Origin: Candidatus Hydrogenedentota bacterium
Lineage (GTDB): Bacteria > Hydrogenedentota > Hydrogenedentia > Hydrogenedentales > JAGMZX01
Length of the DNA stretch: 64,000 nucleotides
NCBI GenBank assembly: GCA_018005585.1
Contig: JAGMZX010000009.1
Coordinates: 6,185-70,184, forward strand
Direction: 5' to 3'
Shown: piece by piece, positions 2,049-62,644 of the stretch
How positions within the stretch are numbered: position 1 is the first letter of the stretch
Layout of the letters: every line of letters starts with the position of its first letter
The notes under the pieces: generated by a model
The model's database searches: none
What the model was told of the DNA's origin: nothing
What the model saw: only the letters and a program-made list of their open reading frames with translations
Made by a program: the position numbers and the translations under genes

Positions 2049-4022
2049 CTAGCAGAAATGGAATCCCAGCAGATTCCAATAGTACAGATAAAAGAGCACG
2101 ATCGCCGATGCGGTCGTCTGGACGGTGAATGCCATGCGGAGGGGCAGGTTCCACCAGGTGCGGCGCCAGGCCGCGACGGTGGTGGCGAACGCAGGCACCC
2201 ACGCAGCGGCGGCGCCCCACGGCAGGACGAGCAGGGCCGCCAGTATCCGCGGTATCCCGTACCCGAAGGCGTTCAAATCGACTTGGAGCAGAAACGCCAT
2301 AAATGTTGCTATGAAAAGGACTTGCAGAACGCAGGCGAGGCCGCCCAGCCAGGCTGCCCACGCGGGCCAGCCCGCACGAGGGGCATCGCCGCGGCGGGGG
2401 CCCCGCCAACCGCGCCGCGCCAGCCAAGCCAGGCTGCCCAGGAGGACCACGGGCAATGCCGAACCCACTGCCGCGAGGATTACCGGCCGGGTCTCGTACC
2501 AGGCCAGCCGGTCGTACACGTTGTCGTCGATGAAGACGTGGGTCACCCGGCCTGCGGCGTCGCGTTCGAAGGCGACCCGGCCCCGGTCGAACAGGCCCAC
2601 TTCCGCGCCGTCTTCCGCGGCGTTCCGGCGAAACCGGCGATAGCAATCCGGTTCCACCTCGATGAGGTCCCATACGCCAGCCGTGCGCCCGAGCGAGGAG
2701 AGAAACGCGAGCTGGACGCGAGCGGGCTTGGCGCCGGGTCCGATTCGGATTTCGCGCACGAATTCCGCGGCGACCGTGGCGAGTTTCATGATATCCGAGC
2801 GCACGTGTCGGTTGTGGCGGAAATAGCCGCTTATGGGCGCGGCGGGCGAAGCCTGCCCTGAAGGCGCGGCCACATGCGCGGTTTCACGCGGGGCAGGGAA
2901 GTAGTGGTCCAGGAGGGCGCGGACAACGGCGCCGTCCAGTCCGCCGGTCTGTGTATTATGGGAGACAAAGACGCCAAGGCCCTTTTCTGGAACGAGGACG
3001 ACCTGCGAGATGAATCCCCAGGTCAACCCGCCTTGTTCGAGGATGCGCAGCCCGTTTTCGTAGCGTTCGCCAAAACCGAGGGCCCGCCCCGGCAGCCGCG
3101 GATGCTGCGTGAAGTGTTGCTCCTGCATGCGGCGCGCCGCCGCCTCGCTGAGGATGCGCGCGCCGCCATAACGGCCGTAACCGAGATGGGCGAGCAGGAA
3201 CCGGCCCATGTCCGTTCCGGTCGTCATCAGGCTGGACGCGGGCACGGTCTGCGCAAAATCGAACGTGACGGCCTTCCGGTTACCGAGGGAATCGGTGTAG
3301 CCCGTGGCCAGACCGGACAGCAACTCCGGCACGATTACAAAGCTGCTGCGCGACATGCCGAGCGGTTCGAGAATATGGAGGCGCGCGTATTCCGAAAACG
3401 GCATGACGGATACTTCTTCGACCACGCACCCCGCCAGCGCGAATCCGTGGTTTGAGTATGAGATGTAGTGTCCCGGCGGCATGACTCGCGGCGGGAGGCT
3501 GCGCGCCAGATAGGTGCACAGCGGCAGGATGTCCGCTTCGGTGCGCGCGCCCATGCCGATGAACCGGTCGTCGAATCCCGCCGTATGCGTGAGCAGATGC
3601 GTCAGGGTTATCGGATGAGGGTACGCAGCGGGAACCTGAAAACACGAGAGGTATTCATTGACGTCTGTGTCGAGGTCGAGCTTGCCCTGTTCCCACAGTT
3701 GCATGACGGCCGTGGCCGTGAACAACTTGGATACCGACGCCACGCGGAACAAGGTGCGGTCAGGTTCCACCGGCCGTCCTGTCGCGGTGTCCATTACGCC
3801 GTAGCCTTTGGCGAAGAGTATTCGCCCGTCGCCAACGACAACGCATACGGCGCCAGGAATGTTGAGATCGGGCATTACGCGGGAAAAGACGGGGTCCAAC
3901 AGCGTTTCAAGCGTGTCCGTATCGCCGGGCCATTCCGGCATCTGCGCGAAGAGTGGCATGGCGCATCCCAACAAAGCCAACACGAGAAACCGCGCCGTTC
4001 CGCTATGATTACGCAAAGACAT
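2049..4022 (-). CDS. Serine hydrolase of the beta-lactamase/PBP (class C-like) family, with N-terminal signal peptide and a C-terminal 4-TM membrane domain
   Basis: Signal peptide 'LVLALLGCAMPLFA', S-x-x-K motif 'FRVASVSKLFTA', about 400-aa beta-lactamase fold, then hydrophobic helices in the last about 170 aa. Confidence 0.8.
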   Translation of the reverse strand: MSLRNHSGTARFLVLALLGCAMPLFAQMPEWPGDTDTLETLLDPVFSRVMPDLNIPGAVCVVVGDGRILFAKGYGVMDTATGRPVEPDRTLFRVASVSKLFTATAVMQLWEQGKLDLDTDVNEYLSCFQVPAAYPHPITLTHLLTHTAGFDDRFIGMGARTEADILPLCTYLARSLPPRVMPPGHYISYSNHGFALAGCVVEEVSVMPFSEYARLHILEPLGMSRSSFVIVPELLSGLATGYTDSLGNRKAVTFDFAQTVPASSLMTTGTDMGRFLLAHLGYGRYGGARILSEAAARRMQEQHFTQHPRLPGRALGFGERYENGLRILEQGGLTWGFISQVVLVPEKGLGVFVSHNTQTGGLDGAVVRALLDHYFPAPRETAHVAAPSGQASPAAPISGYFRHNRHVRSDIMKLATVAAEFVREIRIGPGAKPARVQLAFLSSLGRTAGVWDLIEVEPDCYRRFRRNAAEDGAEVGLFDRGRVAFERDAAGRVTHVFIDDNVYDRLAWYETRPVILAAVGSALPVVLLGSLAWLARRGWRGPRRGDAPRAGWPAWAAWLGGLACVLQVLFIATFMAFLLQVDLNAFGYGIPRILAALLVLPWGAAAAWVPAFATTVAAWRRTWWNLPLRMAFTVQTTASAIVLFYLYYWNLLGFHFC

Positions 4023-4113: not shown

Positions 4114-4164
4114 TTGAACTTGCCGATTGCGGCAGCTATATTGAACAGGTGTTCAGATTCTGAA
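4114..4164 (+). promoter_or_regulatory. Sigma70-like promoter (TTGAAC-N17-TATATT, 4114-4142) followed by a perfect 13-bp palindrome TTCAGATTCTGAA (4152-4164): candidate TetR autoregulatory operator
   Basis: Read directly in the divergent intergenic region upstream of the TetR-Rnk gene. Confidence 0.5.
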
Positions 4165-4207
4165 TTTGGGTTCGCAACTGCCTCTGCCGGCGCGTTGAGG
4201 TGCAGTC

Positions 4208-5293
4208 ATGCCGTTCAGCGATTACAGCATGGCCCTGCCGCGGCGGGAACGCGAGAAAGCGCGCAAGAATACGGCGATTCTTGACGCGGCCCAGCGGGTA
4301 TTCCAGCGTCGCGGCTACCGTCAGGCCACCATGGAAGAGATTGCCCGGGAATCGAGTTATTCCGTGGGCACGCTGTACAACCTGTTCCGGGACAAGGATG
4401 ATTTGTACAACCAAGTCATCGCCCGGATCGGGGAAGCGGTCGTTTCGCGCGTGCAAGGGGCGGTGCTCGCGGAACGTGACCCGGAAAAGGCGATAGAGAC
4501 GCATATCCGTCTGCGCCTGTGCAACTACTTCAACGACCGGCTCTTCTTCGAGACCTTTTCGTGTCCTCCGGAACTCGGGGTACAGCCGGAACCCGGCCGT
4601 TTGGAAGCGGGCGTGCTGGCGTGTTACCGGAAATACCTCGAAGTTGCGGAGCAGTTGCTCGAACGCGTTGCGGGCCCGAAGGGCGAGGGGCGCCGCGATG
4701 ATTTTCGCATGGCGCTGGGTCTCGAAGGCATCGTAACCGCGTACATGGGCTACTGGGCCGGGCCGCGCCAGTCCGACTCGCTTACAGCCATCGCGCACCA
4801 GATACACACGATGCTGTTGCGCGGCGTGGGCTCAGACCGCTTCCGTCAGGCGGCCGCGCCGGATGCTGCGCCGGCCGCGTTGCGCGAGGTTCATCTTTCA
4901 AGTTACGACCTTGAACGGCTTCGGGAACTCATTACGGTGGCGCGCGATTTTGGCGGCGCCGCCTGTTCGGCGTATCTGGACGTGCTCGACGCGGAACTGA
5001 ATCAGGCCCGGGTTGTGCAACCGCGCGAAGTGCCGCCGAACTTGGTCACAATGAATTCGCGCGTACGGCTGCGCCATGCCGACACCGGGGAAGAACGGGT
5101 TTGCGTACTGGTGTTTCCAAAGGACGCGGAAGTGCGCGAAGAAAACGTGTCCATTCTCAGCCGTCTGGGCACGGCGCTGCTGGGCTTTCGTGTGGGCGAC
5201 ATTATCGAATACACGTCGACCCGGGGTACGGCGCGCTACCGCATCGATGCGCTGCTGTACCAGCCGGAAGCCGCCGGAGACTACCACTTGTGA
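4208..5293 (+). CDS. Fusion regulator: N-terminal TetR-family HTH domain plus C-terminal Rnk/GreA-like (Gre-factor C-terminal FKBP-like) domain
   Basis: TetR_N motif 'ILDAAQRVFQRRGYRQATMEEIARESSYSVGTLYNLFRDKDDLY'. The C-terminal 130 aa 'VTMNSRVRLRHADTGEE...VSILSRLGTALLGFRVGDII' aligns to the standalone Rnk at 23169..23564 ('VTMNSRVQLRDV...VSVLAPLGAAILGYRVGDTF'). Confidence 0.75.
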   Translation: MPFSDYSMALPRREREKARKNTAILDAAQRVFQRRGYRQATMEEIARESSYSVGTLYNLFRDKDDLYNQVIARIGEAVVSRVQGAVLAERDPEKAIETHIRLRLCNYFNDRLFFETFSCPPELGVQPEPGRLEAGVLACYRKYLEVAEQLLERVAGPKGEGRRDDFRMALGLEGIVTAYMGYWAGPRQSDSLTAIAHQIHTMLLRGVGSDRFRQAAAPDAAPAALREVHLSSYDLERLRELITVARDFGGAACSAYLDVLDAELNQARVVQPREVPPNLVTMNSRVRLRHADTGEERVCVLVFPKDAEVREENVSILSRLGTALLGFRVGDIIEYTSTRGTARYRIDALLYQPEAAGDYHL

Positions 5294-5464
5294 AGCCGGC
5301 AGGGCCCGTCGCACCCAGTTTCGCGCGTTTTTAGCTGTTTGGCGGGACGTTTGACCGGCCGCGAGGCGCGTGCTTACAATTCGCCATGCATTCAAGCGAT
5401 TACTCAGTCCGTCCTTGACTTGTCTCAAGGGACCGGATTGCGTTTCGCAAAGGTCAGAGAAATC

Positions 5465-6727
5465 ATGCCGGAAATACGACCATTTTGTGGCTTGCGCTTT
5501 AACGCGACCCGCACGGGCGCCTTGGACCGGGTTGTCACGCCGCCCTACGACGTGATCTCGCCCGAGGAGCGGCGGGAACTGGCCCGTTCGCCCTACAGCA
5601 TGGTCCATCTCATCCTTCCGCAGGGCGGCGAGGGCCGGACGCCCTACGAAGCGGCGGCGGCCCGCTTGGCGGCCTGGATCGAGACGGGCGTGCTGGAACG
5701 GGACGGCGCGCCGTTGTACTACCTCCTGGAACAGTCGTTCAGGGACCCTGCGGGCCGGGAACGGGCACGTCGCGGCTTTTTTGCGGTGACCCGATTGCCG
5801 GAAGCGGGAGACCGCTGCATTCTCGGGCATGAGCGCACGTTTCCAAAGCCTGTCGAGGATCGTCTGGCGCTCACCCGCGCGACTTGCGCGAATCTGGGGC
5901 CGGTCTTCGCGCTGTACTCGGACCCGGAAGGCGTGCTGGCGAAATTTCTGGACCAGATGAGCACACGGCCGCCTGATATGACCGCGAGGACCTTCGAAGG
6001 CACGCTGAACCGCGTCTGGCGCGTCGCGCCGGACCCGGCGGTAGCGGCGTTTCTCAAGGACAAGACGCTCTACATTGCCGACGGACACCATCGGTTCGAG
6101 ACCGCGCGTCTCTATCGCGATGAAATGCGCGCGGCGGGTCACACCGCCGCGGGCGGGGACACTCCTTGCGAATTCGTGCTCATGGGTTGTGTCGCGTTGG
6201 AAGACGCGGGGTTGAGCGTTTTCCCGACGCACCGCGTGATTGCGCGCCGCGACGGATTCGACGCGAAGGTGCTGCTGCGGGCGCTCGAACCCTGGTTTGA
6301 CAGCGAAAGCGTCGACGTTGCGGCTCTTCCGGAACGGCTGGCATCAGACCCGGCGGCCTGCGCCATCGGCATGGTCTCGCGTGACCGGGCGGTGGCCCTG
6401 TTGCGGCTGCGCGACATCGACCGGACCGCGTTATTGGGCCACGACCGGGGCCCTGCCTGGCGCGATCTTGATGTCGCGGTGCTGCATCGTGGCATCCTCG
6501 AACGCAGCCTGGGCTTGCCGCCCGAAACGGAATACGGCTACGAAAAAGAGGCGGCGGCGGCAATCCGGGCGGTGCAGGAAGGCCGCGCGGAAGTCGCGTT
6601 CCTGCTCCGCGCGACGCGGCATGACCAGATTCGCGCCTGCGCCGAGGCAGGCGAGGCCATGCCGCAGAAGAGCACGTACTTCTTCCCGAAACTGCCCAGC
6701 GGGGCCGTCATTCACCGGCTCATTTAG
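5465..6727 (+). CDS. DUF1015-family conserved hypothetical protein
   Basis: Typical DUF1015 start 'MPEIRPFCGLRF' and motif 'VTPPYDVISPEE'; about 420 aa from the internal ATG at 5465. The ORF in the track starts upstream at 5339. Confidence 0.7.
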   Translation: MPEIRPFCGLRFNATRTGALDRVVTPPYDVISPEERRELARSPYSMVHLILPQGGEGRTPYEAAAARLAAWIETGVLERDGAPLYYLLEQSFRDPAGRERARRGFFAVTRLPEAGDRCILGHERTFPKPVEDRLALTRATCANLGPVFALYSDPEGVLAKFLDQMSTRPPDMTARTFEGTLNRVWRVAPDPAVAAFLKDKTLYIADGHHRFETARLYRDEMRAAGHTAAGGDTPCEFVLMGCVALEDAGLSVFPTHRVIARRDGFDAKVLLRALEPWFDSESVDVAALPERLASDPAACAIGMVSRDRAVALLRLRDIDRTALLGHDRGPAWRDLDVAVLHRGILERSLGLPPETEYGYEKEAAAAIRAVQEGRAEVAFLLRATRHDQIRACAEAGEAMPQKSTYFFPKLPSGAVIHRLI

Positions 6728-22433: not shown

Positions 22434-22936
22434 ACAATTGCATTCAAACCCGCGCGCATGACGACGTGCCGGAAGCGTTCAATCTAGGGCAACGCGCCAC
22501 GGCTATGCAACCTCTTGCCGGATGAGGTGTGACATCATGGAAAGACCCGCGCTGAGTCCAAATGAAAATGGCCACTCAAGGGGACGCGTGCAGAATAGGG
22601 GCAAACAAGCCGGACGCTCGTCCTCTGACAGCCCGAGAATGGGAGGGACTGTCACGTCTCCGGTCGAACGCACGGAGAGGCATGACCGGTCTAGGGAGGT
22701 TTGCCTGGACCGCGTTTGCCTTTCTGGTGTCTGGGCTTGGGTTGACTAAGAGGCGAGAACCTTATTACCATGAATTCAGGTTCAGTCTTGAATATGCGTT
22801 CAGTACCCAGGAAGGATGCGGAGTATGGCATCTGGCCAAAGAGCACGAGAACTTGTACGAACCTGCGGCTGGCCCCATCCTGGGTGCCGCCAAGTGCAGC
22901 TCTGGCAAGGAAAAGGTATCAGCACAGAAGTGTCGT

Positions 22937-22969
22937 GGCCCCGTCCCGGAGACCGGGGCCGTTTTGTTT
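22937..22969 (+). terminator. Rho-independent terminator-like hairpin on the plus strand (GGCCCCG-tcccggagac-CGGGGCC followed by GTTTTGTTT)
   Basis: 7-bp GC stem with a T-rich tail, read directly. Located in the 0.8-kb lower-GC gap between rbr and rnk. Confidence 0.5.
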
Positions 22970-23168
22970 CCTGCACGGGGATGTCATGTTGCGTATGCCG
23001 GAAGGTTGCGCGGCGCGGCGCGCCGCATGACAGACACGTGTACACACCCTTTAGGAATGCCGGCCTTTAAAGATGGGTGCGGCGATGATATTCCGCGGAG
23101 CCCGTGTCTGCATGACTCCGGCAGGGTCTGCCGGTGCTTTCTGGAAAGCTATTGGAGGAAATCCGAGC

Positions 23169-23564
23169 ATGGCTAAGCAGATTCACATCACCGCGCAGGA
23201 CAGGCAGCGGCTGCTGGAATGCCTCGCCGTGGTGCACGAGTTTCCGGACAAGCGTGACCTGCCGCATATCCGGCAGCTGGAGGAAGAGATTGCGCAGGCA
23301 CAGATAATCATCGATGCGCTCATGACTCCCGAGGATGTGGTCACGATGAATTCGCGCGTACAGCTGAGGGACGTTACCGCGGACAGAGACCTGGAATGCA
23401 CGCTGACGTATCCCGGTGAACGCGACCCGGACAACGAGAGCGTGTCGGTGCTCGCGCCACTGGGCGCGGCCATACTCGGGTATAGGGTGGGCGATACCTT
23501 TGTGGCAGACTTGCCCGAAGGACGGACGCAGTTCCGCATTGAGAGTGTCCGTCATCGGCCCTAG
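23169..23564 (+). CDS. rnk: Rnk-like regulator (GreA/GreB C-terminal domain protein; regulator of nucleoside diphosphate kinase family)
   Basis: 'MAKQIHITAQDRQRLLE...VTMNSRVQLRDV...VSVLAPLGAAILGYRVGD'. Confidence 0.8.
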   Translation: MAKQIHITAQDRQRLLECLAVVHEFPDKRDLPHIRQLEEEIAQAQIIIDALMTPEDVVTMNSRVQLRDVTADRDLECTLTYPGERDPDNESVSVLAPLGAAILGYRVGDTFVADLPEGRTQFRIESVRHRP

Positions 23565-23672
23565 GAGGCCGGAAATTGCCCGCCACGGGTTGCCCATGAC
23601 CGGCTCAACCGGTCTCAAGCCTCGCAAGGCACGATGCCTTATGCATATGCATTACTTGTGGAGACCAGCAGC

Positions 23673-24881
23673 ATGAAGTTCAAGGGTCTGGTCCTTGGGA
23701 TACCCAAGGAGATTATGCAACATGAGTACCGGGTGTCGGCGATACCTGAAACGGTGGCAAAACTGACGGATGAAGGCGCGCGTGTACTGGTGGAAAGCGG
23801 CGCGGGCGCGGCGGCGCATCACCATGATGACAGGTACCGGGAAGCGGGCGCCGGGATTGTTGCCGACAGTGACGCCGTCTTCGCGGAATCGGGCGTGATA
23901 TTGAAGGTCAAGGAGCCTCAATTCGACGCTCGGAAGAACCGACACGAGGTCACGATGATGAAGCCGGGCCAGGCGCTGGTGGCCTTTCTCCACCCGGCTT
24001 CGCCGGCCAACCACCAGATGGTGCGGGACCTCGCCGCCCAAGGGGTGACCAGTTTCACGCTGGACGGCGTGCCCCGCATATCAAACGCGCAGCCCATGGA
24101 CGCGCTGACGTCCATGAGTACGGTCGCGGGATACAAGAGTGTCGTGATGGCGGCGGACGAACTGGGCTGTTTCGTGCCCCTGACCAATACCGCGGTCGGG
24201 GTCGTGCCGGCCGCGCAGGTCTTCGTTGTGGGGGCGGGTGTCGCCGGACTTCAGGCGCTGGCTACGGCCAAGCGTCTCGGCGCCATCAACTTTGCCGCGG
24301 ACATCCGGCCCGAGGCGATGGAGCAGGCCCGGAGCATCCGCGCGCAGATTGTCGATACCGGGGTTCCGGTTGAAGCAGCGAGAGGCGCGGGCGGCTATGC
24401 CAGGGCTTTGGCGCCGGAGTGGCTCGCGCGGGAACAGGAAGCCATTAGAGAAACGGTCTGCAAGGCGGATATTCTGATACTCTCCGCGCTCGTGCCGGGT
24501 CGCATCGCGCCCGTAATCGTGACCGAAGACATGGTCAGGGGCATGAAATCCGGCTCTGTAATCGTGGATATTGCCATTGACCAAGGCGGCAACTGCGCAT
24601 TGACGGAGGCCGGCCGTACGGTTGTCAAGCATGGCGTGACCATCATGGGAGTCAAGAACATTCCCGGCTACGTTCCCGTGAGCGCTTCCTGGCTATTCGC
24701 GCACAATCTCCTTCATTTTCTCACCTACCTAGTTGAAGACGGCGCGGTGCGCGCCGACCGCCAAGACGAGATCATCGGACCGACGCTGGTAACGCTGGAT
24801 GGGCAGGTGGTGCATGCGGGGGCCCTGGAGGCCATGGCGCAGCGCGCCGGAGAGAAAGGGTCTGCCTCGTGCGATTTGTGA
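23673..24881 (+). CDS. pntAA: NAD(P) transhydrogenase subunit alpha part 1 (AlaDH/PNT domain)
   Basis: 'VFVVGAGVAGLQA' NAD-binding motif, AlaDH/PNT N- and C-domains; followed by the small membrane alpha2 and beta subunits. Confidence 0.9.
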   Translation: MKFKGLVLGIPKEIMQHEYRVSAIPETVAKLTDEGARVLVESGAGAAAHHHDDRYREAGAGIVADSDAVFAESGVILKVKEPQFDARKNRHEVTMMKPGQALVAFLHPASPANHQMVRDLAAQGVTSFTLDGVPRISNAQPMDALTSMSTVAGYKSVVMAADELGCFVPLTNTAVGVVPAAQVFVVGAGVAGLQALATAKRLGAINFAADIRPEAMEQARSIRAQIVDTGVPVEAARGAGGYARALAPEWLAREQEAIRETVCKADILILSALVPGRIAPVIVTEDMVRGMKSGSVIVDIAIDQGGNCALTEAGRTVVKHGVTIMGVKNIPGYVPVSASWLFAHNLLHFLTYLVEDGAVRADRQDEIIGPTLVTLDGQVVHAGALEAMAQRAGEKGSASCDL

Positions 24882-25147
24882 TTCTCTTGACGGTGTTCCT
24901 GGTGTCGTCGGTGGTCGGCTACCGGATTATCCGGCGGGTGCCGCCGCTTCTGCACACGCCGCTGATGTCCGGCATGAACGCTATTTCGGGCGTCACCGTA
25001 TTGGGCGCGCTGACCGCGACGGCGGCGGCGCTGGCGACGGGCAGCCGGTTCCTCGGCGCCGCCGCAATTGTACTGGCCATGACCAATGTCGTGGGCGGTT
25101 TTGTCGTGACGGACCGCATGTTACAGATGTTCCGCTCCAAGAAATAA
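24869..25147 (+). CDS. pntAB: NAD(P) transhydrogenase subunit alpha part 2 (small 3-TM membrane subunit)
   Basis: 92-aa hydrophobic protein 'ISGVTVLGAL...VVGGFVVTDRML' sitting between pntAA and pntB. Confidence 0.85.
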   Translation: MRFVILLTVFLVSSVVGYRIIRRVPPLLHTPLMSGMNAISGVTVLGALTATAAALATGSRFLGAAAIVLAMTNVVGGFVVTDRMLQMFRSKK

Positions 25148-25166
25148 CAGAAGGGCCGCTGCGCGC

Positions 25167-26606
25167 ATGCATGGTGTGGTCGAGATTGTGTTGGCCGTCG
25201 CGATTCTTTTGGGAATCCGGCTGATGGGCGCGCCGGAAACGGCGGTCCGGGGCAATCGCCTGGCCGCCTTGAGCCTCCTGACCGCAATTCTGCTCGTTCT
25301 CTGGTCTCAAGAGTTGCTGGCGCTGCCGCTCGTTCTCGTTTCGCTGTTGGCGGGAGCTGTTCTGGGTCTGGTGCTCGCGGTCCGGGTAACGATGCTGCAG
25401 ATGCCGCAGCTGGTGGCGCTGCTGAACGGGCTTGGCGGCGCGGCGTCCCTGCTGACGGCGTTCGCGGCGGCCGAAGTGTCCGCGCACGCAGGCAATCTGT
25501 ATGACCTCGTGACGGGGGGATTGGCTGTTGCCGTTGGGGGTGTTACGTTGAGCGGAAGCCTTGTCGCGGCTGCGAAGTTGCACCGCCTGCTCCCCCAGCA
25601 ACCCTTGCGCTTCCCGCTTGGGGTGCGGATTGCGGGGGCGATTCTCATTGTCCTGTTCGTTCTTCTGATTACGCTGGGAGGCGGTCTGGGCGGACCGGGT
25701 ATCATGATGGGACTCACGCTCCTGGCTGCTGGCGCTTTGGTCTTCGGGGCGCTGTTCGCCTTGCCCGTTGGCGGCGCTGACATGCCCATCACGATATCGC
25801 TGCTGAACGCGACGTCGGGAATCGCCGCAAGCATCTGCGGCTTTGTGGTGGATGACGCCTTCCTCGTGGCCGCGGGCGCGGTCGTCGGCGCGGCGGGGCT
25901 GATTCTGACGCGCGTGATGTGCGCGGCCATAAACCGCTCGCTTCTTCAGGTGCTGACGGGCGCCACGATGGCGGGGGCGAACGCGCCCGCAGCCGATGCT
26001 GTCGCCGCGTCCGAACCCGCTGCGGGCGGAGCGCCGCTTGATTCGGCCGGTGGCCCCGCTCCGGCCGCCTTTGACCCCGTCGAGGCTCTTCTTGAGGCGA
26101 ACAGAATCATCATCATTCCTGGCTACGGCATGGCGCTCGGCGAAGCGGAGGGTCCGGTACGGGACCTCTATGAACTGCTTGACCACCTGGGCAAAGACGT
26201 TCGGTTTGCCATCCATCCCGTGGCGGGCCGCATGCCGGGCCACATGACGGTGCTGCTTGCCGACGTTGATATTCCGTATGACAAGATGGTGCAACTCCAA
26301 GAAGTCAACTCCGAGTTTGCCCAGACCGACGTGGCGCTTGTCGTTGGCGCGTGTGACGTGGTGAACCCCGCGGCTATCACCGCAAGAGGCACGCCCATCT
26401 ATGGCATGCCCATCCTGCATGCGCATGACGCCAGAAACGTGATCGTCTGTAATGCGGACACGAAACCAGGATACTCCGGCATCGAGAATCCCTTGTACGG
26501 CCGCGAGAATGTCGTGCTCCTTCTTGGTAATGCCGCGACAACGCTGGAGACGCTCCTGCATGACCTGGAATCGCGCATCGCTTCCCGGCAACAGACGGGG
26601 CCATGA
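25167..26606 (+). CDS. pntB: NAD(P) transhydrogenase subunit beta
   Basis: N-terminal multi-TM region and C-terminal NADP(H)-binding domain 'IIIIPGYGMALGEAE...GHMTVLLADVDIPYD...ALVVGACDVVNPAA'. Confidence 0.9.
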   Translation: MHGVVEIVLAVAILLGIRLMGAPETAVRGNRLAALSLLTAILLVLWSQELLALPLVLVSLLAGAVLGLVLAVRVTMLQMPQLVALLNGLGGAASLLTAFAAAEVSAHAGNLYDLVTGGLAVAVGGVTLSGSLVAAAKLHRLLPQQPLRFPLGVRIAGAILIVLFVLLITLGGGLGGPGIMMGLTLLAAGALVFGALFALPVGGADMPITISLLNATSGIAASICGFVVDDAFLVAAGAVVGAAGLILTRVMCAAINRSLLQVLTGATMAGANAPAADAVAASEPAAGGAPLDSAGGPAPAAFDPVEALLEANRIIIIPGYGMALGEAEGPVRDLYELLDHLGKDVRFAIHPVAGRMPGHMTVLLADVDIPYDKMVQLQEVNSEFAQTDVALVVGACDVVNPAAITARGTPIYGMPILHAHDARNVIVCNADTKPGYSGIENPLYGRENVVLLLGNAATTLETLLHDLESRIASRQQTGP

Positions 26607-26934: not shown

Positions 26935-28113
26935 ATGCACAACCCTCCGCGTATCTTAAGTATCGAAGATGAGGCGACCGTCCGGCGCGGCATGGCCGCC
27001 TACCTGACGGACAGTGGTTACGAGGTTATCGAGGCAGAGAACGGGCGGATCGGCCTGCAGCGCGTTCTTCTTGATGAACCGGACCTGATCCTCTGCGACT
27101 TGCGCATGCCGGAACTCGACGGCATGCGGGTGTTGTCTGAAGTGCGCCGGCTTGTTCCGGAATTGCCGTTCATCATCGTCTCAGGTTCCGGTGAGATGAT
27201 AGACGCGATCGAAGCGCTGCGCCTGGGGGCGTGGGACTATCTCCTGAAACCCATTGAGGACATGGGAATTCTGGAACATGCCGTGAAGCGCGCGCTGGAC
27301 CAGGCGCGTCTTATCCAGCAGAACCGCAAATACCGGGAGGACCTCGTCGCCACCAACCGCCGTCTGCAGCAAAGCCTGCAACAACTGGAAGAGGACGAGA
27401 CGGCGGCCCGGTACATCCAGTTCCAGTTGCTTCCCCAGCGGTCGACGGTGCTCAACGGCGTCCTGTTCGATTATTTCTTGAGGACTTCCGCGTTTCTCAG
27501 CGGAGATTTTCTGGACTATTTCAAGATCAACGACGCGCAAACGGGTTTTTACGTGGCGGACGTTTCCGGGCACGGGGTCTCGTCCGCTTTCGTCACGGTG
27601 CTGCTCAAGAATACGATCAGCCATTTGATCGACGAATACCGCGAGTTCAAGAACGATACTATCCTGGACCCCGGCCGGGTACTGAAACTGCTGAATGACC
27701 GGATTCTCGCACGGAAATTCGACAAGCACCTCACCATGTTCTTCGCGGTGATCGACACGGGGCAACAGGTCATGCGGTACGGGAACGCAGGGCATTTCCC
27801 CTATCCGGTCTTTCATGACGGGCAGTCGGCACATTTCCTGGCCGACACGCATCTGCCCGTGGGCATGTTTGAGGATTGGACGTATGCTTCCAAGACGCTG
27901 ACGCTGCCGGAGTCTTTCGCTTTGGCCATATTCTCTGACGGCGTCTTCGAGGTGTTCCCGGCACACCGGCTGCTCGACAAGGAGAACCGGCTGCTCTCGC
28001 TGATGGAGCCGTGCGTCCCGGACATCGAGACCGCGGTGGACGCTTTGGGGCTTGCGCGGCCAGGACAGGTGCCTGACGACATATCGGTGCTCTTGCTCAA
28101 GAAAGGAGGCTGA
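26935..28113 (+). CDS. Response regulator receiver domain fused to PP2C-type (SpoIIE/RsbU-like) serine phosphatase
   Basis: Receiver motif 'ILSIEDEATVRRGMAAYL...LILCDLRMPELDG...VSGSG'; PP2C region 'GDFLDYF...YVADVSGHGVSSA...FSDGVFE'. Confidence 0.85.
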   Translation: MHNPPRILSIEDEATVRRGMAAYLTDSGYEVIEAENGRIGLQRVLLDEPDLILCDLRMPELDGMRVLSEVRRLVPELPFIIVSGSGEMIDAIEALRLGAWDYLLKPIEDMGILEHAVKRALDQARLIQQNRKYREDLVATNRRLQQSLQQLEEDETAARYIQFQLLPQRSTVLNGVLFDYFLRTSAFLSGDFLDYFKINDAQTGFYVADVSGHGVSSAFVTVLLKNTISHLIDEYREFKNDTILDPGRVLKLLNDRILARKFDKHLTMFFAVIDTGQQVMRYGNAGHFPYPVFHDGQSAHFLADTHLPVGMFEDWTYASKTLTLPESFALAIFSDGVFEVFPAHRLLDKENRLLSLMEPCVPDIETAVDALGLARPGQVPDDISVLLLKKGG

Positions 28114-61938: not shown

Positions 61939-61969
61939 TTTGAGCGAGCGCTCAGTCAGGAGATACCCC

Positions 61970-62644
61970 ATGCCGTCCACTCAGACCGCGCACAAACGCA
62001 AATGCATACCCGCGCGTGTGAAGAACAACGAATTGGTCGAGAAGAAACGCCGCGAACTTGTCAATGCGGCCGTGGGCCTGTTCACTCGGAAGGGGTTCCA
62101 CCGGACGACGACACGCGAATTGGCCGAGGCGGCGGGCTGGTCCGTGGGGCTGCTGTATGAGTACGTGAAGAGCAAGGAGGACGTGCTTTACCTGGTTTGC
62201 GAGGCGATCCACAGGGACATGGAGCATGCGTTGCGTGAGCGGATTGGGGGGGCGGCAACGGGCCGCGCGTCGCTTGAGGCGGCGATTGCGGAGTACATGC
62301 GCGTCTGCGACCGGATGCAGGACGCGATTCTGCTGATTTACCGCGAAACGGGCGCGCTGGACGCGGTATCCCGCCGCTTCGTATTGCGAAACGAAGAGCG
62401 GATCACCCGCATCTTCGAGGAAATCCTGCGCGCCGGGCGGGAAGATGGCACGCTGCGCCTTCGCGACGGCAGGGCGCTGCGGCTCATGGCGCACAACGTC
62501 GTCGTGCTCGGACATATGTGGGCGTTCCGGCGCTGGTTCCTTGCCAAGAGCTACACGGTGGATGAATACAGCCGCCAGCAGACGGCGTTGATCTTGAATG
62601 AAATGACTTCGGCAAACGAGGGATCCAGGACATGGCCGCCGTGA
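61970..62644 (+). CDS. TetR-family transcriptional regulator
   Basis: 'LVNAAVGLFTRKGFHRTTTRELAEAAGWSVGLLYEYVKSKEDVLY'. Confidence 0.8.
   Translation: MPSTQTAHKRKCIPARVKNNELVEKKRRELVNAAVGLFTRKGFHRTTTRELAEAAGWSVGLLYEYVKSKEDVLYLVCEAIHRDMEHALRERIGGAATGRASLEAAIAEYMRVCDRMQDAILLIYRETGALDAVSRRFVLRNEERITRIFEEILRAGREDGTLRLRDGRALRLMAHNVVVLGHMWAFRRWFLAKSYTVDEYSRQQTALILNEMTSANEGSRTWPP

What the first reader, a model, noticed from the sequence alone, without database searches (positions are those of the whole stretch)
4114..5293. TetR DNA-binding domain fused to a complete Rnk/Gre-factor-like domain, with a candidate autoregulatory palindrome
The 361-aa product has a canonical TetR N-terminal HTH. Its last about 130 aa align residue-for-residue with the standalone Rnk protein found 19 kb away (23169..23564), including the 'VTMNSRV.L' and 'LGAAILGYRVGD' blocks of the Gre-factor C-terminal FKBP-like domain. 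Fusing a sequence-specific DNA-binding repressor domain to a Gre/Rnk-type module is an unusual architecture and could give promoter-specific control through the polymerase channel. A sigma70-like promoter (TTGAAC-N17-TATATT) followed by the perfect palindrome TTCAGATTCTGAA sits directly upstream, as expected for TetR autoregulation.
Basis: partly seen in the sequence, partly recalled or inferred. Interest (0 to 1): 0.6.

Follow-up and report, generated by a model that had tools for sequence, protein, structure and literature searches.

The report
TetR repressor fused to Rnk
This is a real, conserved gene for a DNA-binding TetR repressor joined to an RNA-polymerase-docking Rnk module; it appears to switch off its own promoter and that of a second Rnk gene, which gives a new handle on Rnk, a polymerase-binding protein with no known function.

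Summary
ORF 4208..5293 (361 aa) is a complete FadR-like TetR regulator, an 11-21 aa disordered linker, then a complete Rnk module (Pfam, PDB and AlphaFold/Foldseek agree).

It is not a frameshift artefact. About 70 clusters at 90% identity (about 30 at 50%) keep the same single ORF down to 32% identity, mostly in Hydrogenedentota-type MAGs.

The palindrome TTCAGATTCTGAA is only the junction of two real operators:
- O1 = TGAACAGGTGTTCA (4142-4155)
- O2 = TGAATTTGGGTTCG (4161-4174)
- consensus TGARYnnnnRYTCA, spaced 18-19 bp, starting on the last base of the -10

This layout recurs in 18 promoters from 16 loci. The only other tandem pair in the 64-kb window (22771/22789) lies in a promoter upstream of the standalone rnk, which is followed by pntAA-pntAB-pntB. 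In 11 of 16 loci the standalone rnk lies directly downstream of the fusion.

Best reading: an autoregulated, ligand-gated repressor of a small Rnk regulon whose own C-terminal half is an Rnk-type RNAP-docking module. Promoter-specific action through the secondary channel is not excluded, but it is disfavoured. O1 overlaps -10/+1, and an unfused relative uses the same operator layout. I found no paper on this architecture, so I rate it a new variant of known kinds.

The parts
4114..4119 (+). -35 hexamer TTGAAC of the fusion gene's promoter
   Evidence: Aligned on O1, all 18 related promoters have TTGACA-like hexamers at this position.
4137..4142 (+). -10 hexamer TATATT. Its last T is the first base of O1.
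   Evidence: TAnnAT conserved in 18 promoters.
4142..4155 (+). Operator O1, TGAACAGGTGTTCA. Exact match to TGARYNNNNRYTCA. Spans about -7..+6 relative to the inferred transcription start.
   Evidence: 4 exact hits in the window against 0.5 expected. Conserved position.
4161..4174 (+). Operator O2, TGAATTTGGGTTCG (1 mismatch). Starts 19 bp after O1 and spans about +12..+25.
4152..4164 (.). It is the right arm of O1, 5 bp, then the left arm of O2, so it is a by-product and not a separate site.
4197..4202 (+). Shine-Dalgarno-like GAGGTG, 5 nt before the ATG.
   Evidence: read directly.
4208..5293 (+). CDS of the TetR-Rnk fusion protein (361 aa; stop codon included).
4232..4831 (+). Complete TetR-family regulator (residues 9-208, nine helices). 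HTH at residues 24-69. The base-contacting Gly54 and Tyr57 are equivalent to B. halodurans FadR Gly42 and Tyr45.
   Evidence: PMC5397183.
4829..4882 (+). Disordered linker rich in Ala, Pro, Gly, Ser and Glu (residues 208-225). pLDDT below 50. Pairwise identity 13% in the family, but length held at 11-21 aa.
4886..5017 (+). Short Rnk_N coiled coil (residues 227-270; helices 232-248 and 251-265).
5039..5248 (+). Gre-factor C-terminal globular domain (residues 278-347).
   Evidence: TM-score normalised to target 0.79 to 3BMB and 0.83 to 2PN0.
5255..5290 (+). Rnk signature tail LYQPEAAGDYHL. This is the most conserved stretch of the protein (87% pairwise identity).
22742..22771 (+). Promoter-like TTGACT-N18-TACCAT upstream of the standalone rnk.
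22771..22784 (+). Operator O1' TGAATTCAGGTTCA (exact match).
22789..22802 (+). Operator O2' TGAATATGCGTTCA (exact match, 18 bp after O1').
22803..23168 (+). 366-nt leader of unknown content, with two terminator-like hairpins (22943-22959 and 23118-23134).
23169..23564 (+). Standalone Rnk paralog (131 aa). It lacks the Rnk tail because a stop codon lies inside it.
23634..26606 (+). pntAA (23634-24881), pntAB (24869-25147) and pntB (25167-26606): proton-translocating NAD(P) transhydrogenase, directly downstream of rnk.
   Evidence: The same order follows the fusion gene in L082, L085 and L001.

Best explanation
The gene encodes a genuine bifunctional protein.

N-terminal two thirds. This part is a complete FadR-like TetR-family repressor. 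It should dimerise and bind two adjacent 14-bp palindromes (TGARYnnnnRYTCA, half-site (A)TGA(A/G)T). The palindromes begin on the last base of the -10 element, so a bound repressor occludes the -10/+1 region.

Targets. In this genome exactly two promoters carry the operator pair: its own, and that of a diverged standalone Rnk paralog followed by pntAA-pntAB-pntB. The protein is therefore the self-limiting repressor of a small Rnk regulon. An unidentified ligand of the TetR pocket, possibly an acyl-CoA-like lipophile, presumably releases it.

C-terminal third. This part is tethered by an 11-21 aa flexible linker and is an intact Rnk module (short coiled coil, Gre C-terminal domain, YQPEAAGDY tail). 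By homology it docks on the beta' rim helices at the RNA polymerase secondary channel and competes with Gre/DksA-type factors, without reaching the active site.

What the fusion most likely achieves. It couples dosage and signal: the cell's supply of Rnk-type factors is produced, capped and ligand-gated by the same polypeptide. Each dimer presents two RNAP-docking modules.

Shown here: architecture, conservation, single origin, operators, the two-promoter regulon, and linkage to rnk.

Inferred, not shown: repression, ligand response, RNAP docking.
For: Architecture:
- Pfam and NCBIfam hits.
- PDB sequence hits to Rnk, 2PN0 at 5e-25 and 3BMB at 3e-22, and full-length hits to Bacillus FadR.
- AlphaFold model with mean pLDDT 85.8 and a disordered stretch at 208-223.
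- Foldseek top hits are 3BMB and 2PN0 for the C-terminal part, and FadR, FasR and AibR acyl-CoA sensors for the N-terminal part.

Real and conserved:
- About 70 clusters at 90% identity have the same architecture, down to 32% identity.
- About 30 clusters at 50% identity among 1.84 billion representatives.
- A 100% identical protein occurs on 5 contigs from independent sources.
- The Rnk module is as conserved as the HTH (0.47-0.49 against 0.54 pairwise identity), the tail is at 0.87 and the linker at 0.13.
- Fusion Rnk modules form one clade in a neighbour-joining tree, and its branching mirrors that of the partner Rnks.

Operators:
- The exact pattern occurs 4 times in the window against 0.5 expected.
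- The tandem-pair scan found 15 pairs in 243.5 kb of fusion loci against 0.86 in shuffles. Fourteen of the 15 lie at promoters: 13 just upstream of the fusion gene's start (-22 to -66) and one at the window's rnk promoter.
- The negative control, 728 kb of generic rnk loci, gave 5 weak pairs, none at rnk.
- The -35/-10/O1/O2 register is identical in 18 promoters.
- The half-site equals the ATGA(A/G)T read by FadR Gly42 and Tyr45. These align with Gly54 and Tyr57, which are nearly invariant in the family.

Linkage:
- rnk lies directly downstream of the fusion in 11 of 16 loci.
- pntAB follows in 4 loci.

Rnk biology:
- Gre globular domains bind the beta' rim helices (PMC7527559).
Against: - Nothing here tests DNA binding, repression, ligand response or RNAP binding.
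- The fusion's Rnk module has lost the W-x-V-P-x-G hairpin that is at least 90% conserved in generic Rnks (retention 0.02-0.32), so its RNAP contact may differ from that of canonical Rnk.
- FadR's ligand-binding Arg117 aligns with a non-conserved Glu133 (low-confidence region), so an acyl-CoA ligand is only a guess.
- The NCBIfam Rnk score (103.7) is just under the equivalog cut-off (109).
- A pure dosage-coupling rationale does not explain why the fusion has been kept for so long alongside a separate rnk, nor the complementary decay of the two paralogs.
Confidence: 0.6

Rival explanations
1. Operator-tethered effector. The dimer sits on O2, or on O1 and O2. Through the flexible linker it inserts its Rnk module into the secondary channel of an RNAP at the same promoter. 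This would trap RNAP, block Gre/DksA access or modulate escape, giving promoter-specific control through the channel.
For: - Linker length is constrained to 11-21 aa although its sequence is free.
- O2 lies at about +12..+25, at the downstream edge of a promoter-bound RNAP (geometry inferred).
- The Rnk module is under strong purifying selection.
- Rnk is always C-terminal in several other fusions, which suggests a general RNAP-targeting role.
Against: - O1 starts on the last base of the -10 and covers +1, so repressor and open complex should exclude each other.
- An unfused TetR relative (P0159, L088) has the same -35/-10/O1/O2 design in front of an efflux gene, so the layout was not shaped for an Rnk module.
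- Rnk's coiled coil cannot reach the active centre (PMC4598747).
Confidence: 0.15
2. RNAP-occupancy sensor (homeostat). The Rnk module binds free secondary-channel sites on RNAP, and while it is docked the TetR half cannot occupy its operators. When the channels are filled by the standalone Rnk or by Gre factors, the fusion is released, binds O1/O2 and shuts off rnk and itself.
For: - The regulon in the window consists of the fusion gene and the rnk(-pnt) operon only.
- The pair has been co-inherited and its trees mirror each other.
- Rnk competes with other secondary-channel factors for RNAP (PMC4598747).
Against: - There is no direct evidence.
- A normal TetR ligand pocket is retained, so a small-molecule signal is expected as well.
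- pntAB and other unrelated genes ride behind the operators in some lineages, which a pure Rnk homeostat does not explain.
Confidence: 0.12
3. Partner-binding module. The fused Rnk domain mainly contacts the standalone Rnk paralog, as co-repressor or anti-repressor, rather than RNAP. The two half-decayed paralogs would act as one unit.
For: - The two paralogs show complementary loss of ancestral Rnk features. The fusion keeps the tail but lost W-x-V-P-x-G. The partner keeps P-x-G but often lost the tail.
- The genes are tightly adjacent in 11 of 16 loci.
Against: - No Rnk-Rnk interaction was found in the sources read.
- Three of the 16 loci (L003, L084, L081) and the window have no adjacent rnk, and L001 goes straight from the fusion to pntAA.
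- No multimer prediction could be run.
Confidence: 0.08
4. Artefact: a frameshift or misassembly joined a tetR gene to an rnk gene.
For: None found. Only the prior that fusions in MAGs are sometimes artefacts.
Against: - The same uninterrupted ORF occurs in about 70 clusters from NCBI, JGI, ENA and Logan assemblies.
- A separate rnk usually follows it.
- The linker is in frame everywhere.
Confidence: 0.01

Closest known systems
Rnk, 'regulator of nucleoside diphosphate kinase' (E. coli Rnk, PDB 3BMB; Nitrosomonas homolog 2PN0)
   Same: Residues 226-361 have the short Rnk_N coiled coil, the Gre C-terminal domain and the YQPEAAGDY tail. Identity to 3BMB and 2PN0 is 37-41%, and TM-score normalised to target is 0.79-0.83.
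   Different: Here it is the C-terminal third of a 361-aa DNA-binding protein. It lacks the W-x-V-P-x-G hairpin conserved in generic Rnks. It scores just under the NCBIfam equivalog cut-off. Rnk itself has no known physiological function (PMC4598747).
TetR-family FadR of Bacillus (B. subtilis YsiA/FadR 3WHB, 1VI0; B. halodurans FadR 5GP9, 5GPC)
   Same: - Full-length sequence and fold match over residues 16-207.
- The same base-contacting Gly and Tyr in the recognition helix.
- The same half-site ATGA(A/G)T.
- Two dimers on adjacent inverted repeats at its own promoter (PMC5397183).
   Different: - Only about 20% identical, and far below NCBIfam's FadR cut-off (49.5 against 200 bits).
- Operator spacing differs: two 14-bp palindromes 18-19 bp apart, against inverted repeats offset by 4 bp.
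- Ligand-binding Arg117 is not conserved.
- The targets are rnk and pnt, not fad genes.
- It carries an extra C-terminal module.
GreA/GreB transcript-cleavage factors and Gfh1
   Same: The homologous C-terminal globular domain, which binds the beta' rim helices (PMC7527559).
   Different: No long GreA_GreB_N coiled coil and no acidic tip. GreA and GreB models score far below their cut-offs. Cleavage stimulation is not expected.
Bifunctional repressor-effector proteins such as PutA, BirA and NadR (named from general knowledge, not tested here)
   Same: One polypeptide both represses the operon of a pathway and carries out that pathway's function, which makes expression self-limiting.
   Different: In those proteins the effector part is an enzyme. 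Here it is an RNAP-binding factor, so the regulator's 'cargo' targets the transcription machinery itself.
Other Rnk fusions seen in the databases (GNAT-Rnk, S30AE/HPF-Rnk, Rnk-Rnk, Zn-ribbon-Rnk, unknown-domain-Rnk)
   Same: The Rnk module is C-terminal to an unrelated N-terminal domain.
   Different: None of them has a DNA-binding domain. I did not look for literature on them.

Membership tests
TetR family of regulators (TFR) | N-terminal helix-turn-helix matching PF00440 above the gathering score | tested here: met
   55 bits against a cut-off of 24, residues 24-69.
TetR family of regulators (TFR) | All-helical C-terminal ligand-binding/dimerisation domain (about nine helices in total) | tested here: met
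   AlphaFold model with helices 9-208. Foldseek TM-score normalised to target 0.70-0.75 to full-length TetR structures.
TetR family of regulators (TFR) | Palindromic operator at its own promoter (autoregulation) | tested here: met
   Met computationally. Tandem palindromes are conserved in register with -35/-10 in 18 promoters, with a negative control. Binding itself was not tested.
TetR family of regulators (TFR) | Ligand-induced release from DNA | not testable with these tools
   Needs EMSA or ITC with candidate ligands.
Rnk (NCBIfam NF004396 / PRK05753) | Rnk_N short coiled coil plus Gre C-terminal domain | tested here: met
   PF14760 at 26.6 bits (cut-off 23.7) and PF01272 at 54.8 bits (cut-off 26.9). 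Fold match to 3BMB and 2PN0.
Rnk (NCBIfam NF004396 / PRK05753) | C-terminal YQPEAAGDY signature | tested here: met
   LYQPEAAGDYHL is present, and Y351, Q352, P353 and E354 are invariant in the family.
Rnk (NCBIfam NF004396 / PRK05753) | Equivalog score at or above the curated cut-off; single-domain protein of about 136 aa | tested here: not met
   103.7 bits against a cut-off of 109. The protein is 361 aa with an extra TetR half. The W-x-V-P-x-G hairpin is lost.
Rnk (NCBIfam NF004396 / PRK05753) | [quoted passage not shown] | not testable with these tools
   This property is known for E. coli Rnk (PMC4598747). It needs a pull-down or competition assay.
GreA/GreB transcript-cleavage factors | Long N-terminal coiled coil with an acidic tip (D41/E44 in GreA); GreA or GreB model above cut-off | tested here: not met
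   No GreA_GreB_N hit. TIGR01462 scores 49.9 against 139, and the greB model 21.3 against 171. The coiled coil is only about 17 + 15 residues.
Bacillus-type FadR (TetR-family acyl-CoA sensor, NF053878) | Model score above cut-off | tested here: not met
   49.5 bits against a cut-off of 200.
Bacillus-type FadR (TetR-family acyl-CoA sensor, NF053878) | Recognition-helix Gly and Tyr reading the ATGA(A/G)T half-site | tested here: met
   Gly54 and Tyr57 align with Gly42 and Tyr45 (PMC5397183). The operator half-site is TGA(A/G)Y.
Bacillus-type FadR (TetR-family acyl-CoA sensor, NF053878) | Conserved ligand-binding Arg117; a regulon of fad genes | tested here: inconclusive
   Arg117 aligns with a non-conserved Glu133, but this part of the alignment has low confidence. 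The operator-bearing promoters in the window drive the fusion gene and rnk-pnt, not fad genes.

The most novel reading that the evidence does not exclude
The protein physically couples a sequence-specific operator to the RNA polymerase secondary channel. There are two forms of this idea. In the first, it delivers or anchors its Rnk module to RNAP at operator-bearing promoters. In the second, RNAP acts as the 'ligand': docking of the Rnk module on free secondary channels controls operator binding, giving a feedback loop that measures secondary-channel occupancy. Either form would be the first DNA-binding regulator found to act through, or sense, the secondary channel. It would also give Rnk its first physiological role.
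Probability: 0.25. Interest if true: 0.85.

Novelty: new variant of a known kind. Interest (0 to 1): 0.6.

Why it matters
Rnk has been known since 2008 to bind RNA polymerase and compete with Gre factors and DksA. It has no phenotype and no known function (PMC4598747).

This work defines a conserved two-gene module: TetR-Rnk plus an Rnk paralog. It comes with a defined operator, a defined promoter and a two-promoter regulon. Rnk regulation and function therefore become directly testable by EMSA, reporter assays, RNAP pull-down and ligand screening.

If the two halves are mechanistically coupled, this would be a new way to connect a sequence-specific repressor to the polymerase secondary channel. 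The other C-terminal Rnk fusions (GNAT, HPF and others) suggest that Rnk may be a general module for targeting proteins to RNAP.

If the halves work independently, the protein is a tidy example of a self-limiting repressor-effector fusion, of moderate interest.

Tried and rejected
- **Relic of a fusion gene in the rnk leader.** I looked for one in the 366-nt leader (22700-23200) with tblastn and 8 family members. Only noise came back (E >= 0.18).
- **Rfam scan of the leader.** Nothing credible.
- **Single-site operator scan with one mismatch.** 16 hits against 14.5 expected, so single degenerate sites carry no information. Only exact sites and tandem pairs are informative.
- **The exact single site at 61941.** It belongs to the promoter of a different TetR gene (61970..62644, 28% identical in the HTH), so it is not counted in the regulon.
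- **Synteny beyond rnk and pnt.** None is conserved. The beta-lactamase-like gene (2049..4022) is shared only with the 84%-identical relative L081, and DUF1015 (5339..6727) is in none of the loci, so neither is part of the system.
- **Acyl-CoA as ligand.** The fold neighbours are acyl-CoA sensors, but the key Arg is not conserved, so this stays a guess.
- **AFDB Foldseek search for taxonomic spread.** The library was unavailable.
- **Lamour et al. 2008 (Rnk structure paper).** Not held.
- **Literature.** Searches for TetR-Rnk or TetR-Gre fusions found nothing relevant.
- **Residue-level Gre-CTD/beta' contacts.** Not found in the accessible papers, so the RNAP-binding surface of the fused module was not mapped.
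- **Internal translation start.** An internal start that would release a free Rnk module was considered. There is no ATG near residues 215-230 and no SD before L224 (TTG), so I rejected it.
Full report
**1. What is in the sequence**

The ORF runs from 4208 to 5293 on the + strand. It is 361 aa long and starts at an ATG that lies 5 nt after GAGGTG.

Domain searches give three hits (Pfam):
- TetR_N at residues 24-69 (E 7e-15)
- Rnk_N at residues 227-270 (E 8e-6)
- the Gre-factor C-terminal domain at residues 278-347 (E 1e-14)

NCBIfam's Rnk model covers 131 of its 137 positions on residues 227-360. The score is 103.7 bits, just under the equivalog cut-off of 109.

BLASTP against the standalone Rnk at 23169..23564 gives 32% identity over 129 residues with one gap, E 8e-23. 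'Residue for residue' is too strong.

PDB sequence searches hit Rnk proteins for the C-terminal part: 2PN0 at 5e-25 and E. coli Rnk 3BMB at 3e-22. For residues 16-207 they give full-length matches to Bacillus FadR (5GP9, 3WHB, 1VI0).

An AlphaFold model built on 66 family members has mean pLDDT 85.8. It shows:
- a nine-helix TetR body (residues 9-208)
- a disordered stretch at 208-223 (pLDDT below 50)
- a confident Rnk module with a short coiled coil (helices 232-248 and 251-265)

Foldseek against the PDB ranks 3BMB and 2PN0 first (TM-score normalised to target 0.79-0.83). Next comes a run of acyl-CoA-sensing TetR regulators: Bacillus and Thermus FadR, FasR, AibR and BkaR.

**2. Not an artefact, and a small old family**

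The word-indexed search found about 70 clusters at 90% identity with the same TetR_N + GreA_GreB architecture. They are full length and go down to 32% identity. They come from NCBI, JGI, ENA and Logan assemblies, and the names that exist are Candidatus Hydrogenedentes MAGs. The window's own protein occurs 100% identical on five contigs.

An exhaustive HMMER scan of 1.84 billion representatives found about 28-30 full-length clusters at 50% identity.

Among GTDB species representatives, 8 of the best 80 loci carry the fusion. Their labels are Hydrogenedentota, Planctomycetota, Omnitrophota, unclassified, and one 'Bathyarchaeia' contig that is probably mis-binned.

Conservation by segment, as mean pairwise identity:

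| Segment | Identity |
|---|---|
| HTH domain | 0.54 |
| Ligand/dimer domain | 0.39 |
| Linker | 0.13 (length held at 11-21 aa) |
| Rnk_N coiled coil | 0.49 |
| Gre-C domain | 0.47 |
| Tail LYQPEAAGDYHL | 0.87 |

The Rnk half is therefore under purifying selection as strong as that on the DNA-binding domain.

In a neighbour-joining tree the fused Rnk modules form one clade, which points to a single origin.

**3. The operator**

I extracted the upstream regions of the fusion gene from the orthologous loci. Each showed the same design:
- a TTGACA-like -35
- a 17-nt spacer
- a TAnnAT -10 whose last T is the first base of a 14-bp palindrome, TGARYnnnnRYTCA (O1)
- a second copy (O2) starting 18-19 bp later

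In the window, O1 is TGAACAGGTGTTCA (4142-4155) and O2 is TGAATTTGGGTTCG (4161-4174).

Any two such sites five bases apart produce a TTCA-N5-TGAA inverted repeat, and here chance extends it to six-base arms.

Statistics:
- The exact pattern occurs 4 times in the 64-kb window against 0.5 expected, and no shuffle out of 100 reached 4.
- A tandem-pair scan of 16 fusion loci (243.5 kb) found 15 pairs against 0.86 in shuffles. Fourteen of the 15 lie at promoters: 13 just upstream of the fusion gene's start (-22 to -66) and one at the window's rnk promoter. The fifteenth is a weak pair (2 mismatches in its first site) that overlaps the true pair in L081.
- 728 kb of generic rnk loci gave 5 weak pairs, none of them at rnk.
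- With one mismatch allowed, single sites are at chance level.

The half-site matches the ATGA(A/G)T that B. halodurans FadR reads through Gly42 and Tyr45 (PMC5397183). Those residues align with Gly54 and Tyr57 of the fusion, which are invariant or nearly so in the family.

With the -10 at 4137-4142, the start site should be near 4149. O1 then spans about -7..+6 and O2 about +12..+25. This geometry is inferred. It is the classic arrangement for repression by occlusion.

**4. The regulon and the partner gene**

The only other tandem pair in the window is at 22771-22784 and 22789-22802. Both are exact matches, 18 bp apart, and they sit directly behind a TTGACT-N18-TACCAT promoter. This is 366 nt upstream of the standalone rnk.

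The standalone rnk is followed by pntAA, pntAB and pntB.

In 11 of 16 loci a standalone rnk of about 135-160 aa lies directly downstream of the fusion gene on the same strand, with gaps of about 45-240 bp. These loci are L002, L004-L008, L082, L083 and L085-L087.

Other arrangements:
- L082 and L085 continue into pntAA-pntAB-pntB.
- L001 goes straight from the fusion to pntAA.
- None of the 72 generic rnk loci has pnt nearby.
- No other neighbour is conserved.

The ancestral unit is therefore promoter/O1/O2, then the fusion, then rnk, with pnt added in one clade. In the window the unit has been split, and both halves kept a promoter with the operator pair. That argues for selection on co-regulation.

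The trees of the partner Rnks and of the fused modules have matching subclades, as expected if the two genes were inherited together.

**5. An unfused relative**

P0159 is 227 aa and 37% identical over residues 6-207. It has the same -35/-10/O1/O2 layout and precedes a TolC-like outer-membrane efflux gene.

The promoter/operator design therefore predates the fusion and was not shaped for an Rnk module. The other two are that O1 overlaps -10/+1, and that Rnk's coiled coil is too short to reach the active centre (PMC4598747).

**6. How it most likely works**

Shown here:
- a complete TetR regulator joined by a flexible tether to a complete Rnk module
- conserved operators at two promoters
- linkage to a second rnk

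Inferred from family knowledge:
- The dimer represses both promoters and is released by a ligand of the TetR pocket.

My preferred reading (confidence 0.6) is a self-limiting, ligand-gated supply of Rnk-type factors in which the repressor is itself one of those factors.

Rivals:

| Rival | Confidence |
|---|---|
| Tethered delivery of the Rnk module to promoter-bound RNAP | 0.15 |
| RNAP-occupancy sensor, where docking on RNAP competes with operator binding | 0.12 |
| Hetero-complex with the standalone paralog | 0.08 |
| Artefact | 0.01 |

**7. Points that do not fit neatly**

I compared the family with 50 columns that are at least 80% conserved in 61 generic Rnks. The two paralogs have decayed in complementary ways:
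- The fused module keeps the tail and the coiled-coil residues but has lost the W-x-V-P-x-G hairpin (retention 0.02-0.32).
- The partner keeps P-x-G (1.0) but often loses the tail.

In the window the partner has a stop codon inside the tail (..VRHRP*EAGN).

The 366-nt rnk leader has no Rfam match and no relic of a fusion gene. It has two terminator-like hairpins.

The ligand is unknown. FadR's Arg117 aligns with a non-conserved Glu133, in a low-confidence part of the alignment.

**8. Comparison and novelty**

The parts are known: the TetR family (FadR-like) and Rnk. As a whole protein it falls short of Rnk equivalog status on score and size. It fails the FadR model cut-off and is clearly not a GreA or GreB.

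Databases label it 'TetR family transcriptional regulator', 'GreA/GreB family elongation factor' or 'regulator of nucleoside diphosphate kinase'.

Full-text searches found no paper that describes the architecture.

Other C-terminal Rnk fusions exist, to GNAT, S30AE/HPF, a second Rnk, a Zn-ribbon and an unknown domain. None has a DNA-binding domain.

I rate it a new variant of known kinds, with interest 0.6. It is a real and unusual architecture that makes the unknown function of Rnk experimentally approachable. The more exciting mechanistic reading is, on present evidence, the less likely one.

Noticed in passing
window 22803-23168: A 366-nt leader lies between the rnk operators and the rnk start. 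It has no Rfam match and no relic of a fusion gene. Two terminator-like hairpins are present (22943-22959 and 23118-23134), which suggests possible attenuation, as reported for the E. coli greA leader (PMC2836576, title and abstract only).
   Followed up: partly
window 23550-23600: The standalone Rnk ends ..VRHRP*, and the next in-frame residues are EAGN. The conserved Rnk tail (YQPEAAGDY) is therefore interrupted by a stop codon. The partner Rnks in L008 and L086 also lack the tail.
   Followed up: partly
window 23634-26606; L001, L082, L085: pntAA-pntAB-pntB (NAD(P) transhydrogenase) rides behind the TetR-Rnk operators in four Hydrogenedentes-type loci. It is found in none of the 72 generic rnk loci. 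The reason is unknown.
   Followed up: partly
window 61941-62644: A separate 224-aa TetR gene (61970..62644; TetR_N + TetR_C_24) has a single perfect palindrome, TGAGCGAGCGCTCA, two bases after its TACTAT -10. It is probably its own autoregulatory operator. It is only 28% identical to the fusion in the HTH region.
   Followed up: partly
P0075, P0086, P0148, P0172, P0232, P0226, P0074 (protein collections): Rnk modules occur at the C-terminus of several other fusions: GNAT acetyltransferase-Rnk (many clusters of about 308 aa), S30AE/HPF-Rnk, tandem Rnk-Rnk, Zn-ribbon-Rnk, and an unknown 200-aa domain fused to Rnk. This suggests Rnk may be a general RNAP-targeting module.
   Followed up: partly
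L088 240-340: The unfused TetR relative P0159 has the same TTGACA-N17-TACAAT + O1/O2 layout and overlaps the start of a TolC-like OEP gene. The operator design predates the Rnk fusion.
   Followed up: yes
L085 4630-7541: Two fusion paralogs sit in tandem, each with its own promoter and operators, followed by rnk-pntAA-pntAB-pntB and a baeRF-family gene.
   Followed up: no
L001 (DATKVG010000080.1): The contig is labelled 'Candidatus Bathyarchaeia archaeon', but it carries the fusion, bacterial-type operators and a PntAA 79% identical to the window's. It is probably mis-binned.
   Followed up: partly
window 26935-28113: A response-regulator receiver + SpoIIE/PP2C phosphatase gene lies directly after pntB. 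At the same position L085 has a baeRF-family gene instead.
   Followed up: no
window 5351-5380: The DUF1015 gene (5339..6727 as listed) has a strong promoter-like site, TTGACC-N18-TACAAT, just after the fusion's stop codon. The fusion gene therefore looks monocistronic here, and the true DUF1015 start is probably downstream of 5380.
   Followed up: no
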